Shown: positions 10,058 through 37,532 of the stretch, piece by piece
Position numbering within the stretch: position 1 is the stretch's first letter
Layout of the letters: every line of letters begins with the position of its first letter
DNA from: an uncultured Gammaproteobacteria bacterium
Lineage (GTDB): Bacteria; Patescibacteriota; Microgenomatia; Levybacterales; UBA12049
Reading direction: 5' to 3'
NCBI GenBank assembly: GCA_965230895.1
Contig: OZ246394.1
Span: 29,723-93,722, forward strand
DNA length: 64,000 bases
Translations under genes and position numbers: made by a program
Notes under the pieces: model-generated
Databases searched by the model: none
What the model was told of the DNA's origin: nothing
Seen by the model: the letters and a program-made list of their open reading frames with translations, nothing else

Positions 10058-10074
10058 ATACAGTTTGTTATAAT
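10058..10074 (+). promoter_or_regulatory. extended -10 promoter of island gene 1
   Basis: atacAGTTTGTTATAAT, with TGt-TATAAT ending at 10074, 12 nt before the ATG at 10087. It shares the AGTTTGT element with other island promoters. Confidence 0.45.
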
Positions 10075-10086
10075 ACGTCCTATTAG

Positions 10087-13053
10087 ATGAGTAAGACTCC
10101 AGAATCACGAGATGTACCTTCATCAATTTCACGCTCATTCGAACCAGGATCTGCAGATGCTGCTGTTCCAAAACGCTCTCGAATAGTTCCGCTTTCGGAT
10201 AGAGGTATTGCTCCACGTCCACGAGTGCGTTCTCTGCCTCCTGAAGTGACGGCTGCGAGAACTTACTTCCAGGGTTTGCAAAGAGAACTAAAACTTGATA
10301 CCTCAGATGATCCACAAGAACGAGCTGAAAACAGAGAATTACGCCAAGAGGTTTTAAAAGATGTGCGTGAACAAGACCAGGATTTTCATTCAGCTCAAGG
10401 AATAGTAGTAGCCGAAGCGCAAAAGCATCACGATGAGCGAGTTGAAGAACAAGGTGCTGAAGCTCATGAGTATTTTGCCACATATGCCGCAATGCTGAGA
10501 AGCGAACCTGATGTTGAGGTGCGACGTGCATTTGCGGATGAAGAGAAGGAAAGTGAGGAGTTTCAACACGCACGAAATGCACTACGAAGAGAACCAACTC
10601 CTGAAACGGTAGATTCTGAAGTAGATCATGAAGAAGTTTCCACAACAACCAAGGAAATCGTCGTCGTTGAAACCGGGCGTCTGCCTGAAATTGTTGTTGC
10701 TACCGAAGTGGTTGAAATTGATCCAAATATAAAGATTCGGGAAGACATAACGTGGGCAAACGAAGTTCTTGAATCTTCCAGTAATCTTCCTATGAGTGAA
10801 GAGGATGCTGGAAGCGGCTTGACAAAAATGGAGTATATAGAAGGTAAAGTAACCGGTATGTGGCAAGATCCGCAGCGTACTGAAGCAGCATTACGTATTT
10901 GGAAAGCACACAGTGGTTCAGCCGATTTATATGATCGCGCAAAAGAAATAGTGGGCAACGATGTCCAAGCCCGTTGGCAAGACGTGACACCTTCACAACT
11001 TGCTGCTTTTACTACAATTAATGCTCGTGGTGGTTATGTTGCAGAGGATTTTGGCGACATATTAAAACAATATTTTACCGGACCAAGCGATATGAAGCAG
11101 CGAGTTGATGCATATTATAAATTTGCTGATGCTGCAATAGATATCGTTGATGATGCAGAGGCTAGTAGAAAAGCAGCACAAATTGGTGTCTTTGAAACTG
11201 ATATTATTCCTCGTGACTCTGAATTTCTTACAGATATACACCTTGCAAGTTTAATGGGCTTTTACGACGAAGAGATGCGGGTAAAAGCGAGTATAGCAAG
11301 TCAAGTTGTTATGGCAGGAATTGCACGTTCTTCGGGGATTGATTATGTAAGTATTAAAGAGACAAACGATCAAGCTCTGCTCGCAAAGCTTCAAGGCGCT
11401 CGTCTAAACCGAGTATTTATTGCGATGAGGGACAGATCGATTCGAGAAAATTTTGCGGGGTATAGTAAAGTGAAAAATGTCTTGGTTCCAAAGCTTGAAG
11501 CGATGTTTGGTCCGAGCGGGAGCGGCACAACCCAATCAGTCCATGCAAAGATATATGAGAATCCTGAAATGATAGAAAAGGATCAATTTTTAGAAACAAT
11601 AGGAGGCATTACTGAAAATTATGGTTCTGATCCTATGTACGCAAAGTTTATGGACAAGTTGCAGTTACGTGCTACAGGAGGTGTGGTCCGTGTGCAAAAC
11701 GCTGAGCAGATAAGACAAACAGGTGAAACGCCTATGTTTATCAGCTTTAAAATACCTGGTACAGAATGTGTTCTCGATGTATGTATGCCAGCGTCTTTGT
11801 CTGCAGATAGAGGAAAACTTATAGAACAATTTATTGCTGACACAAGACCCATTGAAAGTGTAGCAGCGGACGATATTGGAATGTATACCTCATCTCTTAA
11901 GGTAAATGGGAAAGATGTTTATGCGATCTATCGCTCTCCTGATAAGCCAGAAGCTGAGCGGCATGATATTGATATGCTCAATGCGATCGGCTTTCCTGAA
12001 GTATCAGCTGAAAATATCCAAGTAGATAATGCCGAGCTAGCAAGAAAAATTGATACAGAACAAATTCGATTCACAAACACGCGTGGTTTCCGCGTCCCTT
12101 TGCAACATCCTGCACTAACTGCACTTGGGTATGAATATGTTGATTTCCGTAAAGATCCAAACCTTCTTCGTACGATGAATGCAACAATTCACGTAGACGG
12201 AGTTGACGTCACTGTAAAGCTTGATCAAGATTTCCGAATCGATCTTGAAGGTAAACACGCTGATATATCTACTATTGGACCTTCTGTACAAAATGTCTTC
12301 CTCTCTATTTTGTATCCAGCATTGTGTGCAGTCCATGCAAAAGATGAATCAGGAGAGGCAGTAGAAATTAATAAAATTGTAGCTTCAAGAGTGGGATATA
12401 TTGGTTTTGTCCGTGAAGGATATAACTTCTCAGCAGATCAAGCTGGATATCTTTTGCGCGATGAAGGAAAAGATCTAGCCACAATTTCTGAACAAAGAAA
12501 AGTGAACGGAGAGACGAGGAACTCTACGTATACAAGACCGAAAGAATCTGATGATCCGTCGCTTCCACCAGTGAAGATTTTCATACCATTGCCTGATGCT
12601 ACCTTCCCTATGCCTGAAGTCTCAACAAGTTCATTAACGATCATTGCACCACAGCCAGAGCAAAGACCTGTTAAGCAAGGACATCCATTAGGATTGACCG
12701 ATCTTGAAGAATATGAGCTTCAGACAAATCCTTATAGAGGATTTCAAGGAGCTTTACATGAGATAGATATGGAACTATCTTATATTTCTAAGGATCGTGC
12801 ACGGTTACTAAGGGAACGTGAAATAGCTCAACGTGAAGGCAGATCTGATGCAGGCGTTACAAAGAAATTGCAGGAGCTTTTTGACGATGAGAAGAGTTTG
12901 CGTGGATCGGTAACAAGCTTTGAAAAAGCGCTTCGTGAGGAATTTGATACAACGCCTCAGGCACGAACGATGAAGTTCCGAGATCGTCAGAGGTTGTCAG
13001 TACATGAGTTATTAGATTTGCTGGCAGCGCAGCATGATGAAGAGCAAGCGTAA
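10087..13053 (+). CDS. island gene 1: large hypothetical protein with N-terminal leader module
   Basis: 988 aa. Leader: MSKTPESRDVPSSISRSFEPGSADAAVPKRSRIVPLSD...RVRSLPPE. The rest has no motif I recognise. The C-terminal roughly 120 aa are charged and coiled-coil-like. Confidence 0.85.
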   Translation: MSKTPESRDVPSSISRSFEPGSADAAVPKRSRIVPLSDRGIAPRPRVRSLPPEVTAARTYFQGLQRELKLDTSDDPQERAENRELRQEVLKDVREQDQDFHSAQGIVVAEAQKHHDERVEEQGAEAHEYFATYAAMLRSEPDVEVRRAFADEEKESEEFQHARNALRREPTPETVDSEVDHEEVSTTTKEIVVVETGRLPEIVVATEVVEIDPNIKIREDITWANEVLESSSNLPMSEEDAGSGLTKMEYIEGKVTGMWQDPQRTEAALRIWKAHSGSADLYDRAKEIVGNDVQARWQDVTPSQLAAFTTINARGGYVAEDFGDILKQYFTGPSDMKQRVDAYYKFADAAIDIVDDAEASRKAAQIGVFETDIIPRDSEFLTDIHLASLMGFYDEEMRVKASIASQVVMAGIARSSGIDYVSIKETNDQALLAKLQGARLNRVFIAMRDRSIRENFAGYSKVKNVLVPKLEAMFGPSGSGTTQSVHAKIYENPEMIEKDQFLETIGGITENYGSDPMYAKFMDKLQLRATGGVVRVQNAEQIRQTGETPMFISFKIPGTECVLDVCMPASLSADRGKLIEQFIADTRPIESVAADDIGMYTSSLKVNGKDVYAIYRSPDKPEAERHDIDMLNAIGFPEVSAENIQVDNAELARKIDTEQIRFTNTRGFRVPLQHPALTALGYEYVDFRKDPNLLRTMNATIHVDGVDVTVKLDQDFRIDLEGKHADISTIGPSVQNVFLSILYPALCAVHAKDESGEAVEINKIVASRVGYIGFVREGYNFSADQAGYLLRDEGKDLATISEQRKVNGETRNSTYTRPKESDDPSLPPVKIFIPLPDATFPMPEVSTSSLTIIAPQPEQRPVKQGHPLGLTDLEEYELQTNPYRGFQGALHEIDMELSYISKDRARLLREREIAQREGRSDAGVTKKLQELFDDEKSLRGSVTSFEKALREEFDTTPQARTMKFRDRQRLSVHELLDLLAAQHDEEQA

Positions 13054-13117
13054 AACAAGAGTAGACTTATAGTTCAGATTGTATTATATAACTAGATTCG
13101 CTATAATACCGATTGCT

Positions 13118-37494: not shown

Positions 37495-37506
37495 CTCATT
37501 TTAGAG

Positions 37507-37528
37507 TCTTATAGTTTGTGTTAAAATA
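37507..37528 (+). promoter_or_regulatory. conserved island promoter element, copy upstream of gene 18
   Basis: TCTTATAGTTTGTGTTAAAATA. The extended -10 TGtTAAAAT ends at 37527, 5 nt before the ATG at 37533. Confidence 0.55.
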
Positions 37529-37532
37529 GCCT

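What the first reader, a model, noticed from the sequence alone, without database searches (positions are those of the whole stretch)
10058..37532. Almost every island gene has its own extended -10 promoter within 5-13 nt of the start codon
Seen: the distance from the end of a TATAAT-like hexamer to the ATG is short for most island genes. It is 12 nt at 10087, 10 at 13118 and 7 at 20483. It is 8 at 22231 (with TTGACG-17-TATACT), 6 at 23121 (TAGTATACT) and 11 at 25038. It is 13 at 28827 (TTTACA-17-TACAAT), 8 at 31299, 8 at 33048 and 7 at 34615. It is 5 at both 36121 and 37533. Only genes 4, 5 and 13 show Shine-Dalgarno-like sequences. The same geometry occurs at housekeeping genes (rseP 1997, proS 7960, msrB 56557). 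So the island uses the host's leaderless expression style rather than a foreign one. That argues for long residence or an origin in a related lineage, despite its different protein composition. Having a promoter for nearly every gene in an 18-gene cluster is unusual compared with the operonic flanks.
Basis: partly seen in the sequence, partly recalled or inferred. Interest (0 to 1): 0.45.

Follow-up and report, generated by a model that had tools for sequence, protein, structure and literature searches.

The report
Leaderless promoters abutting island start codons
Most genes in this Saccharibacteria (TM7) genome segment, inside and outside the 18-gene island, have a TATAAT-type promoter box 5-13 bases before the ATG, the known signature of leaderless mRNAs, so the pattern is real but is the host lineage's normal expression style rather than an island peculiarity.

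Summary
All 12 quoted -10-to-ATG distances are exact, and 14 of 18 island genes have a TANNNT box 4-13 nt before the start (4.3 expected from shuffles; 0 of 1000 shuffles reach 14). The boxes behave like real promoters. TGn precedes start-proximal boxes in 41% of cases against 7.7% elsewhere, and -35-like hexamers are enriched upstream of them. Shine-Dalgarno (SD) motifs are nearly absent.

The pattern is not island-specific. Flanking housekeeping genes show it in 22 of 38 cases (island vs flank p=0.23). It peaks at 6-10 nt across 80 Saccharibacteria proS loci, and this lineage is at the extreme (59% near -10, 11% SD, against about 31% and 32%). This is the known "group C" leaderless architecture.

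In an SD-poor genome, one promoter per gene follows directly from leaderless translation. All four island genes without a near -10 have an SD or lie 2-5 nt after the previous gene's stop.

"Extended -10" holds for only 7 of 14 boxes. "Long residence" is not supported, because the closest relative carries a different island at the same site. A Saccharibacteria-type origin is supported by AT-rich synonymous sites.

The more unusual feature lies elsewhere. Every island protein carries a shared N-terminal tag that sits at the C-terminus in the relative's island, and the island encodes a HerA/VirB4-like ATPase.

The parts
10058..38717 (.). 18-gene variable island. It runs from the synteny break with relative L003 at about 10007 to the last tagged gene, which ends at 38717. 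Sixteen genes are on the + strand and two on the - strand.
   Evidence: Synteny with L003 ends at window 10007. All 18 proteins share an N-terminal tag. Gene lengths agree with calls made independently in a public collection.
10066..10089 (+). TGTTATAAT (hexamer 10069-10074), 12 nt, ATG 10087. Extended -10; predicted leader about 5 nt.
13102..13120 (+). TATAAT (13102-13107), 10 nt, ATG 13118. CTTATAGTT lies upstream at 13066-13074.
14550..14562 (+). TATAAT (14550-14555), 4 nt, TTG 14560 (ECF-type sigma factor gene). Spacing is too short for a standard transcription start and the start codon is non-ATG, so this case is ambiguous.
16888..16936 (-). CTGGCA-18-TATAAT promoter (16936-16907) and AAGGA (16892-16888) upstream of ATG 16881. 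This gene is leadered and SD-led.
20426..20485 (.). Divergent control region. On the + strand, TATAAT 20470-20475 lies 7 nt before ATG 20483 (leaderless). On the - strand, TATAAT (ATTATA at 20468-20473 on +) overlaps it by 4 bp and lies 42 nt upstream of ATPase ATG 20425, which has a strong GAGGAGG SD at 20437-20431.
22194..22233 (+). TTGACG-17-TATACT (hexamer 22217-22222), 8 nt, ATG 22231.
23109..23123 (+). TATACT (23109-23114), 6 nt, ATG 23121. It sits in a 17-nt spacer after the previous stop codon.
25018..25040 (+). TGGTATAAT (hexamer 25021-25026), 11 nt, ATG 25038.
27939..27994 (+). Perfect TTGACA-16-TATAAT (27939-27966) 25 nt before ATG 27992, plus a weak TAAGAT (27978-27983) at 8 nt. 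Probably a short leadered transcript without an SD.
28785..28829 (+). TTTACA-17-TACAAT (hexamer 28808-28813), 13 nt, ATG 28827.
30118..30133 (+). AAGGAG SD (30118-30123) before ATG 30131, which lies 2 nt after the previous stop. SD-led and translationally coupled; no -10.
31282..31301 (+). TGTTATACT (hexamer 31285-31290), 8 nt, ATG 31299.
33031..33050 (+). TGGTAAAAT (hexamer 33034-33039), 8 nt, ATG 33048.
34574..34617 (+). Shared promoter module TCTTATAGTTTGTGGTAAACT (hexamer 34602-34607), 7 nt, ATG 34615.
   Evidence: family D5
36082..36123 (+). The same module, TCTTATAGTTTGTGATAAACT (hexamer 36110-36115), 5 nt, ATG 36121 (sigma-70 family gene).
37494..37535 (+). The same module, TCTTATAGTTTGTGTTAAAAT (hexamer 37522-37527), 5 nt, ATG 37533.
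1978..1999 (+). Housekeeping comparator: TGCTATAAT, 7 nt, ATG 1997 (RseP-like M50 protease).
7945..7962 (+). Housekeeping comparator: TGCTATACT, 6 nt, ATG 7960 (ProS). Conserved base for base in L003.
56545..56559 (+). Housekeeping comparator: TATAAT, 6 nt, ATG 56557 (MsrB).

Best explanation
The hexamers are functional sigma-70-type -10 elements. About half are extended (TGn), and some have a recognisable -35. They sit so close to the start codon that RNA polymerase, which starts roughly 6-9 nt downstream of the -10, begins the transcript at the A of the ATG or at most about 6 nt upstream. The resulting mRNAs are leaderless or nearly so, and are translated without a Shine-Dalgarno (SD) interaction by ribosomes binding the 5'-terminal AUG.

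This is the general expression style of the host, a Saccharibacteria/TM7 bacterium from a lineage that has almost abandoned SD use. The island conforms to that style. Because an internal AUG without an SD is a poor start, each gene that is neither SD-led nor tightly coupled to the gene before it needs its own transcription start at its own ATG. That produces one promoter per gene.

Shown here: the sequence geometry, its statistical excess, its promoter-specific co-features, its genome-wide and phylum-wide occurrence, and its recurrence in unrelated gene sets at the same locus. Inferred: the actual transcription start sites, and the leaderless mode of translation.
For: 1. Position-specific excess. 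Island 14/18 against 4.3 in shuffles; flanks 22/38 against 7.4. First ATGs 55% against 10.6% of other ATGs, p=4e-19.
2. Sharp distance peak at 5-8 nt in the window and 6-10 nt across 80 Saccharibacteria loci.
3. Promoter-specific co-features that were not part of the filter. TGn precedes start-proximal boxes in 157/386 cases (41%) against 2037/26347 (7.7%) elsewhere, p=1.6e-69. -35-like hexamers at 16-18 nt reach at least 4/6 matches in 36% against 13%, p=2.7e-5.
4. Unbiased 6-mer enrichment upstream of window starts returns GTTATA, TATAAT, ATAATA and TATACT, and no SD words. Other Saccharibacteria loci return AAGGAG-type words.
5. Only 8 of 56 genes have any SD-like tetramer, and 35 of the 36 genes with a near -10 start with ATG.
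6. Start positions have independent support. Gene lengths called in a public collection match for 13 island genes, and the shared protein tag sits 16-27 residues after each chosen start.
7. Replication in other gene sets. All 5 genes of the different island in L003 have TATAAT or TATACT 6-9 nt before the ATG. Clusters around ATPase homologues in L084, L086 and L089 show the same. The window 988-aa protein and its L003 homologue have remodelled N-termini, yet each keeps a -10 abutting its own ATG.
8. All four island genes lacking a near -10 have an SD or start 2-5 nt after the previous stop.
9. The architecture matches the published 'group C' class: a Pribnow box 6-8 nt from the starts of leaderless first genes (PMC6028130).
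Against: There are no transcription start site (TSS) data for this organism. No convincing intrinsic terminators lie between island genes, so read-through polycistronic transcripts probably coexist with the internal promoters. Four island genes (d=10-13) would have 3-6-nt leaders rather than none. Gene 14560 has d=4 and a TTG start, which fits poorly. Gene 27992 has a much better promoter 25 nt upstream. T at position -1 is equally frequent at SD-led and coupled starts (17/20), so it cannot be used as evidence for TSS choice. Some of my start choices in the flanks were guided by the box itself. The test on first ATGs does not depend on my start choices.
Confidence: 0.8

Rival explanations
1. 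The hexamers are not promoters. They are a non-SD, AU-rich translation-initiation signal on polycistronic mRNAs, as in Bacteroidota ('group B' genomes).
For: No intrinsic terminators lie between island genes. Some boxes lie in very short spacers (23121: 17 nt; 7960: 21 nt; 4834: 10 nt). T at -1 is general to all starts, so some start-context signal related to translation may exist.
Against: The motif is sequence-specific (TAnnnT). It is accompanied by TGn at exactly the extended -10 position (41% vs 7.7%) and by -35-like hexamers at 16-18 nt. A ribosome-binding signal would have neither. Tightly coupled genes (4062, 21823, 30131, 50335, 51019, 51552) lack it. Distances of 5-8 nt match RNA polymerase geometry.
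Confidence: 0.06
2. The boxes are real promoters but mostly redundant. Island expression is dominated by a few long read-through transcripts, and the per-gene promoters contribute little.
For: There are no terminators between 16 co-oriented genes. In L091, a homologous ATPase cluster is organised as overlapping operonic genes with few near -10 boxes, so the gene set does not need per-gene promoters.
Against: Thirteen or fourteen island genes have no SD and lie 17-285 nt from the previous stop, so they would be poorly translated from an internal position. The boxes are maintained in every gene of the unrelated L003 island.
Confidence: 0.1
3. A subset of island promoters is read by the island's own sigma factors (genes 14560-15417 and 36121-37494) rather than by the housekeeping sigma.
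For: Three consecutive genes, including the sigma gene 36121, share a 35-nt module TCTTATAGTTTGTGnTAAAnT (74-86% identity). Exact CTTATAGTT occurs four times in the window, always upstream of island genes on the + strand. Their -10 variant TAAA(C/A)T differs from the TATAAT/TATACT boxes of the housekeeping genes.
Against: The boxes still fit the TAnnnT/TGn housekeeping consensus. The module may simply reflect recent duplication, since a 65-nt repeat brackets the last two genes. One-mismatch matches to CTTATAGTT are not enriched (14 found, 15.6 expected). ECF-type sigmas normally read quite different motifs (established knowledge).
Confidence: 0.1
4. The pattern is a chance product of AT-rich intergenic DNA, or of start codons placed wrongly.
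For: The genome is about 40% G+C, and TAnnnT hexamers are common (1452 in the window at 4/6 or better).
Against: Dinucleotide shuffles of the same upstream regions never reach the observed counts (0/1000). The starts are supported by independent gene calls and by the protein tag. The pattern recurs in relatives.
Confidence: 0.01

Closest known systems
Leaderless-gene architecture of 'group C' bacterial genomes (GeneMarkS-2 classification; Actinobacteria such as M. tuberculosis, and Deinococcus-Thermus such as D. deserti)
   Same: A Pribnow-type -10 box about 6-8 nt upstream of the start codon, no SD on those genes, and ATG starts. A minority of genes are SD-led, often internal to operons. The box can be mistaken for a ribosome-binding site by gene finders (PMC6028130).
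   Different: The host is a low-GC Saccharibacteria (CPR/Patescibacteria) rather than a high-GC actinobacterium or Deinococcus. The apparent leaderless fraction (about 59-64% of genes, not only first genes of operons) and the scarcity of SD (11-14%) are at the high and low ends respectively. I found no paper in the searchable library describing leaderless expression in Saccharibacteria.
Extended -10 (TGnTATAAT) promoters, common in Gram-positive bacteria
   Same: TG lies one base upstream of the hexamer, and the -35 is often poor when TGn is present (for example 10087, 25038, 7960, 62979).
   Different: Only half of the island boxes and about a quarter of the flank boxes have TGn. Here the promoter is fused to the start codon.
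Non-SD translation initiation of Bacteroidota ('group B')
   Same: SD motifs are rare, and an A/T-rich motif lies just upstream of starts.
   Different: Group B motifs occur before all genes, including internal operon genes, and are not promoters. Here the motif has promoter co-features (TGn, -35) and is missing from tightly coupled genes.
Integron gene cassettes and polymorphic effector islands (as analogies for the island's modularity)
   Same: A variable array of unrelated ORFan genes at a fixed chromosomal site, with content that differs between close relatives.
   Different: No integrase, attC sites or tRNA were found. Integron cassettes are promoterless and depend on a common promoter, whereas here each gene carries its own promoter.

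Membership tests
Leaderless ('group C') gene-start architecture | -10 (Pribnow) box localised about 6-10 nt upstream of many start codons | tested here: met
   The peak is at d=5-8 in the window and 6-10 across 80 loci. Counts are 36/56 genes and 39/71 first ATGs against 10.6% background.
Leaderless ('group C') gene-start architecture | No Shine-Dalgarno motif on those genes | tested here: met
   None of the 36 genes with a near -10 has GGAG, GAGG or AGGA at -18 to -4. No SD 6-mers are enriched.
Leaderless ('group C') gene-start architecture | AUG (or GUG) start codon at the 5' end of the transcript | tested here: inconclusive
   35 of 36 are ATG and one is TTG. Whether the codon is at the 5' end depends on the TSS, which is not known.
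Leaderless ('group C') gene-start architecture | Mapped primary 5' ends at or within about 5 nt of the start codon | not testable with these tools
   No transcriptome data are available. The literature search found no TSS analysis for this lineage.
Leaderless ('group C') gene-start architecture | Remaining genes use SD or translational coupling | tested here: inconclusive
   Island: 4/4 are explained. Flanks: 9 of 16 are explained by SD or a gap of 12 nt or less, and 7 are not (my tally).
Extended -10 promoter | TG at -15/-14 (TGn immediately 5' of the hexamer) | tested here: inconclusive
   Present in 7/14 island boxes and 5/22 flank boxes, and strongly enriched as a class (41% vs 7.7%). It does not hold for 'almost every' island gene.
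Canonical two-hexamer sigma-70 promoter | -35 TTGACA-like hexamer 16-18 nt upstream of the -10 | tested here: inconclusive
   At least 4/6 matches in 36% of start-proximal boxes against 13% background (p=2.7e-5). Overall counts of two-hexamer sites are not above shuffles.
Horizontally acquired genomic island | Presence/absence or content polymorphism between close relatives at a conserved site | tested here: met
   L003 is syntenic to window 10007 and then carries different genes.
Horizontally acquired genomic island | Foreign nucleotide composition at synonymous sites | tested here: not met
   The G+C excess is in codon positions 1 and 2 only. Fourfold-site G+C is 0.23 in the island against 0.28 in the flanks.
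Horizontally acquired genomic island | Mobility genes or tRNA/att boundaries | tested here: not met
   No tRNA. No integrase, transposase or phage families. No match in phage records. The only boundary feature is a 65-nt repeat of the DHH gene 5' end.
HerA/FtsK/VirB4/VirD4 translocase ATPases (island gene 16943-20425) | P-loop hexameric-translocase fold | tested here: met
   Pfam DUF87. The AlphaFold model has pLDDT 78.7. Foldseek top hits are HerA, VirB4/TrwK, Cag-beta and SIR2-HerA, with E-values 6e-13 to 1e-9. The subfamily is unresolved, and all curated NCBIfam hits are far below cut-off.

The most novel reading that the evidence does not exclude
The per-gene leaderless promoters may be one half of a portable cassette design. 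Each island gene would be a self-sufficient unit made of a promoter fused to the ATG, a roughly 40-residue disordered address tag, and an unrelated payload. The payloads include two sigma factors and the ATPase itself. The tag is a short linear motif (aromatic-x-G...G-P...R-R-x-V-S-P/L) that sits at the N-terminus in this genome and at the C-terminus in the closest relative. A different tag (IPVP...RSVGAM) decorates the neighbours of a homologous ATPase in L091. On this reading the island is a rapidly exchanging cargo set for an undescribed tag-directed export, targeting or processing system built around a HerA/VirB4-like ATPase in episymbiotic Saccharibacteria. Leaderless promoters would be what lets cassettes be swapped or reordered without losing expression.
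Probability: 0.25. Interest if true: 0.8.

Novelty: new member of a known kind. Interest (0 to 1): 0.33.

Why it matters
For this finding the value is practical and comparative. It shows that at least one Saccharibacteria lineage expresses most genes, housekeeping and accessory alike, from promoters fused to the start codon, with very little SD use.

This affects start-codon calling in CPR genomes, because naive ORF extension runs into the -10 box at 13079, 31281, 33030, 34612, 36106 and 56542. It also bears on operon prediction and on the design of expression constructs for the emerging genetic systems in Saccharibacteria.

It places a CPR lineage beside Actinobacteria and Deinococcus among the leaderless-rich bacteria. 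Because sister lineages still use SD (about 32% of genes), it offers a natural series for studying how SD-led initiation is lost.

It also removes promoter style as an argument that the island is special. Attention should move to the shared protein tag and the ATPase.

Tried and rejected
- Rfam and tRNA scans of the window found nothing.
- The generic two-hexamer promoter and terminator scans are not enriched over shuffles. They gave no terminators between island genes.
- Metagenome and viral-contig scans with the ATPase returned no relatives.
- Word-index protein searches with the ATPase, the tag alignment and the 988-aa protein returned only the query itself or nothing.
- The PDB sequence search with the ATPase found nothing.
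- PHROGs and PADLOC gave nothing for island proteins apart from weak HerA/Mad8-type hits to the ATPase. A prophage or a known defence system is therefore not supported.
- The ATPase has no match in phage records. It has only distant (25% identity) homologues on actinobacterial plasmids, next to an ADP-ribosyltransferase.
- Literature searches for leaderless expression in Saccharibacteria/CPR found no direct report. The TM7x transcriptome paper (PMID 35975994) is not held.
- I tried to extend the L003 island through a protein look-up.
- T at -1 was considered as TSS evidence and rejected, because it is equally common at SD-led and coupled starts.
- I looked for a negative correlation between -10 use and SD use across loci and found none (rho=-0.08).
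Full report
**What the window is.** ProS from the window retrieves 80 orthologous loci that are almost all labelled Saccharibacteria, Saccharimonadales or TM7. The closest is L003, a 1.3-Mb contig with ProS 94% identical. 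The flanks of the finding encode ordinary housekeeping proteins: an RseP-like M50 protease, G6PD, 6PGD, ProS, DnaX, CysS and MsrB. No tRNA or Rfam family is present.

**The island.** The region from about 10.0 to 38.7 kb has higher G+C, 0.42-0.47 against about 0.39-0.41 in the flanks. It holds 18 genes. Pfam recognises only two sigma-70 family proteins and a DUF87/HerA-type ATPase among them.

**Checking the observation.** I then scanned every candidate start of every long ORF for TAnnnT hexamers with at least 4/6 matches to TATAAT.
- All twelve quoted distances are exact.
- The three SD-bearing genes are as stated: 16881(-), the ATPase at 20425(-), and 30131.
- The three housekeeping examples hold (d=7, 6 and 6).
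- Gene 14560 (TTG start, TATAAT at d=4) is ambiguous.
- Gene 27992 has a weak box at d=8 and a perfect TTGACA-16-TATAAT at d=25.
- Gene 21823 has nothing and begins 5 nt after the previous stop.
- Only 7 of the 14 island boxes have the TGn that defines an extended -10.

**Is it more than chance?** Yes.
- A test that does not depend on my start choices uses the first ATG of every ORF of at least 100 aa. It gives 39/71 with a box 4-13 nt upstream, against 246/2324 for all other ATGs (p=4e-19).
- With curated starts, the island has 14/18 against 4.3 +/- 1.7 in dinucleotide shuffles of the same upstream 50 nt. The flanks have 22/38 against 7.4 +/- 2.3. No shuffle out of 1000 reaches either count.
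- The distance histogram for boxes matching at least 5/6 peaks at 5-8 nt.

**Are the boxes promoters or just A/T-rich sequence?** Three features that were not part of my filter point to promoters.
- Across the window plus 80 Saccharibacteria loci, start-proximal boxes are preceded by TGn in 41% of cases against 7.7% for the same hexamers elsewhere (p=1.6e-69).
- In the window, -35-like hexamers at 16-18 nt reach at least 4/6 matches in 36% against 13% (p=2.7e-5).
- Unbiased 6-mer enrichment in the 20 nt before window starts returns GTTATA, TATAAT, ATAATA and TATACT, and no SD word. The same analysis on the other loci returns AAGGAG-type words.

The generic two-hexamer scan is not enriched over shuffles and finds no convincing terminator between island genes. 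The signal therefore lies in where the -10 sits, not in how many promoter-like sites exist. Read-through transcription cannot be excluded.

**Are the start codons right?** A public collection's gene calls on a contig of the same strain give 988, 468, 285, 487, 1160, 444, 116, 290, 601, 931, 253, 433 and 341 aa. These are the same starts. All 18 proteins also share an N-terminal motif whose conserved Phe lies 16-27 residues after the chosen start. Naive longest-ORF calls (13079, 31281, 33030, 34612, 36106, 56542) simply read through the -10 box.

**Island versus host.** The geometry is not an island property.
- The island has 78% and the flanks 58% (Fisher p=0.23). The distances do not differ (Mann-Whitney p=0.24).
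- Short same-strand gaps (20 nt or less) are 3/15 in the island and 8/23 in the flanks.
- Across the 80 proS loci, -10 boxes pile up 6-10 nt before first ATGs.
- proS itself alternates between leaderless-type and SD-type upstream regions in different lineages.
- Pooled, the other loci show about 31% near -10 and about 32% SD. The window shows 59% and 11%, L003 shows 62% and 12%, and the window ranks third of 67 loci.

This lineage is therefore an extreme of a phylum-wide tendency. The pattern corresponds to the published 'group C' class: a Pribnow box 6-8 nt from the starts of leaderless genes, frequent in Actinobacteria and Deinococcus-Thermus (PMC6028130). I found no paper in the searchable library that reports this for Saccharibacteria.

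**Mechanism.** RNA polymerase normally starts 6-9 nt downstream of the -10 (established knowledge).
- With d=5-8, as in eight island genes and most flank genes, the A of the ATG falls in that window.
- With d=10-13 (10087, 13118, 25038, 28827), the nearest purine about 7-9 nt downstream gives leaders of 3-5 nt.
- Such mRNAs lack any SD and would be translated from the 5'-terminal AUG. This is inferred by analogy with mycobacteria and Deinococcus.

In an SD-poor genome a gene is translatable only if it has its own start-codon-proximal TSS, an SD, or tight coupling to the gene before it. In the island, the four genes lacking a near -10 are exactly the three with an SD and the one that starts 5 nt after the previous stop. 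In the flanks, 9 of 16 such genes are explained the same way.

**Related sequences.**
- L003 is syntenic with window 1-10007 at 78-87% DNA identity. It then carries a different gene set at the same site.
- Only the 988-aa protein has a homologue there: 34% identity, window residues 57-840 against L003 residues 6-779.
- All five L003 island genes nevertheless have TATAAT or TATACT 6-9 nt before their ATG.
- Homologues of the island ATPase found by exhaustive HMMER search lie in ORFan clusters. In L084, L086 and L089 these again show TGATATAAT-type boxes 6-11 nt from most ATGs.
- In L091 the homologous cluster is operonic, with overlapping genes and few near boxes.

The promoter style therefore follows the host lineage rather than the gene set.

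'Long residence' is contradicted by the turnover between close relatives. A foreign origin is also not indicated. The island's extra G+C lies entirely in codon positions 1 and 2 (Arg, Pro, Asp, Gly and Ala enrichment), and fourfold sites are slightly more AT-rich than in the flanks (0.23 vs 0.28, p=0.003).

**What the island is (followed only partly).**
- Every island protein begins with a disordered segment of about 40 residues carrying ...R-S-F-x(5-9)-[AP]-P-x-R-x-R-[IV]-V-S-[PL]....
- A profile of this motif finds it only in island ORFs among 3213 ORFs from the window and 80 loci.
- In L003 the proteins lack it at the N-terminus. Instead they end with a similar motif, [WF]-x-G-x(3-6)-G-P-x-[RKQ]-[RKQ]-[ST]-L.
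- In L091, six neighbours of the ATPase homologue, and the ATPase itself, carry a different N-terminal motif, IPVP...RSVGAM.
- The ATPase model (pLDDT 78.7; residues 1-54 disordered) matches HerA, VirB4/TrwK, Cag-beta and SIR2-HerA folds. No curated family accepts it. No phage or defence family matches the other proteins.

This looks like a tag-plus-ATPase system of unknown function. It is a separate and more novel matter than the promoter geometry.

**Verdict.** Its best explanation is the known leaderless architecture, here in a Saccharibacteria lineage that uses it for most genes. The island is not exceptional in this respect. Interest is modest (0.33), and the novelty class is a new member of a known kind. 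The decisive missing datum is 5'-end mapping.

Noticed in passing
window 10087-38717 (first ~45 codons of each of the 18 island genes): All 18 island proteins share a disordered N-terminal tag...RSF-x(5-9)-[AP]P-x-R-x-R[IV]VS[PL].... This includes two sigma factors and the HerA-like ATPase. A profile of the motif hits only island ORFs among 3213 ORFs from the window plus 80 Saccharibacteria loci.
   Followed up: partly
L003 12108-20849: The closest relative carries a different island at the same site. Its proteins end in a similar motif placed at the C-terminus, [WF]xG...GP.[RKQ][RKQ][ST]L*. The one shared protein (34% identity) has the tag at the N-terminus in the window and at the C-terminus in L003.
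   Followed up: partly
L091 79-15270: Around a homologous ATPase (P0005), six neighbouring ORFans and the ATPase itself carry a different N-terminal motif (..IPVP..(P)RSVGAM..). These genes are arranged as overlapping operonic genes.
   Followed up: no
window 35904-35968 and 38767-38831: A 65-nt direct repeat (83% identity). A copy of the 5' end of the flanking DHH-family gene (ATG 38764) sits in the 285-nt spacer before gene 36121. It brackets the last two island genes, which suggests a later insertion or duplication at the right border.
   Followed up: no
window 34574-34608, 36082-36116, 37494-37528 (also 13066-13074): Three consecutive genes, including a sigma factor gene, share the promoter module TCTTATAGTTTGTGnTAAAnT. 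Exact CTTATAGTT occurs four times in the window, always on the + strand upstream of island genes.
   Followed up: partly
window 20468-20475: Two TATAAT boxes on opposite strands overlap by 4 bp (AATTATAATG). One serves the leaderless gene 20483. The other points towards the SD-led ATPase gene. Together they look like a compact bidirectional promoter.
   Followed up: no
window, all 56 gene starts: T occupies position -1 in 45 of 56 starts (80%), against 24% of all ATGs. The preference is just as strong at SD-led and coupled starts, so it is not explained by transcription start choice alone (also 50% across 1339 starts).
   Followed up: partly
window 10087-38717 vs flanks: The island's higher G+C is a protein-composition effect. 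GC1 is 0.61 vs 0.54 and GC2 is 0.46 vs 0.38, while GC3 is 0.25 vs 0.30 and fourfold sites are 0.23 vs 0.28. Arg, Pro, Asp, Gly and Ala are enriched; Cys, Lys, Ile, Phe and Tyr are depleted.
   Followed up: yes
window 46028-46197: TTGACA-16-(TGA)TACACT lies 11 nt before a 21-codon ORF (46067-46132, MESITIHSLICITNLPPGRVL). It is followed by a TATAAT box and the only clear intrinsic terminator in this part of the window (46160-46180 plus a T run), 17 nt before gene 46198. This may be a leader peptide/attenuator or a small transcript.
   Followed up: no
window 26912-27066: Internal tandem repeats of about 36-72 nt inside the 931-aa island gene (25038-27833). They encode repeated ..IPTMADAKDPDxVP.. 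units (family D2).
   Followed up: no
L092 (Streptomyces clavuligerus plasmid NZ_CP065235.1, 298558-301416): The only annotated distant homologues of the island ATPase (about 25% identity over 53% of its length) are 'ATP-binding proteins' on actinobacterial plasmids, mainly Streptomyces. In the record examined, the gene is directly followed by an ADP-ribosyltransferase gene.
   Followed up: no
window 9193-9978 (-): A Pro/Thr/Ser-rich low-complexity protein with a C-terminal hydrophobic anchor lies between proS and the island. It is conserved in L003, so it belongs to the flank and not to the island.
   Followed up: no
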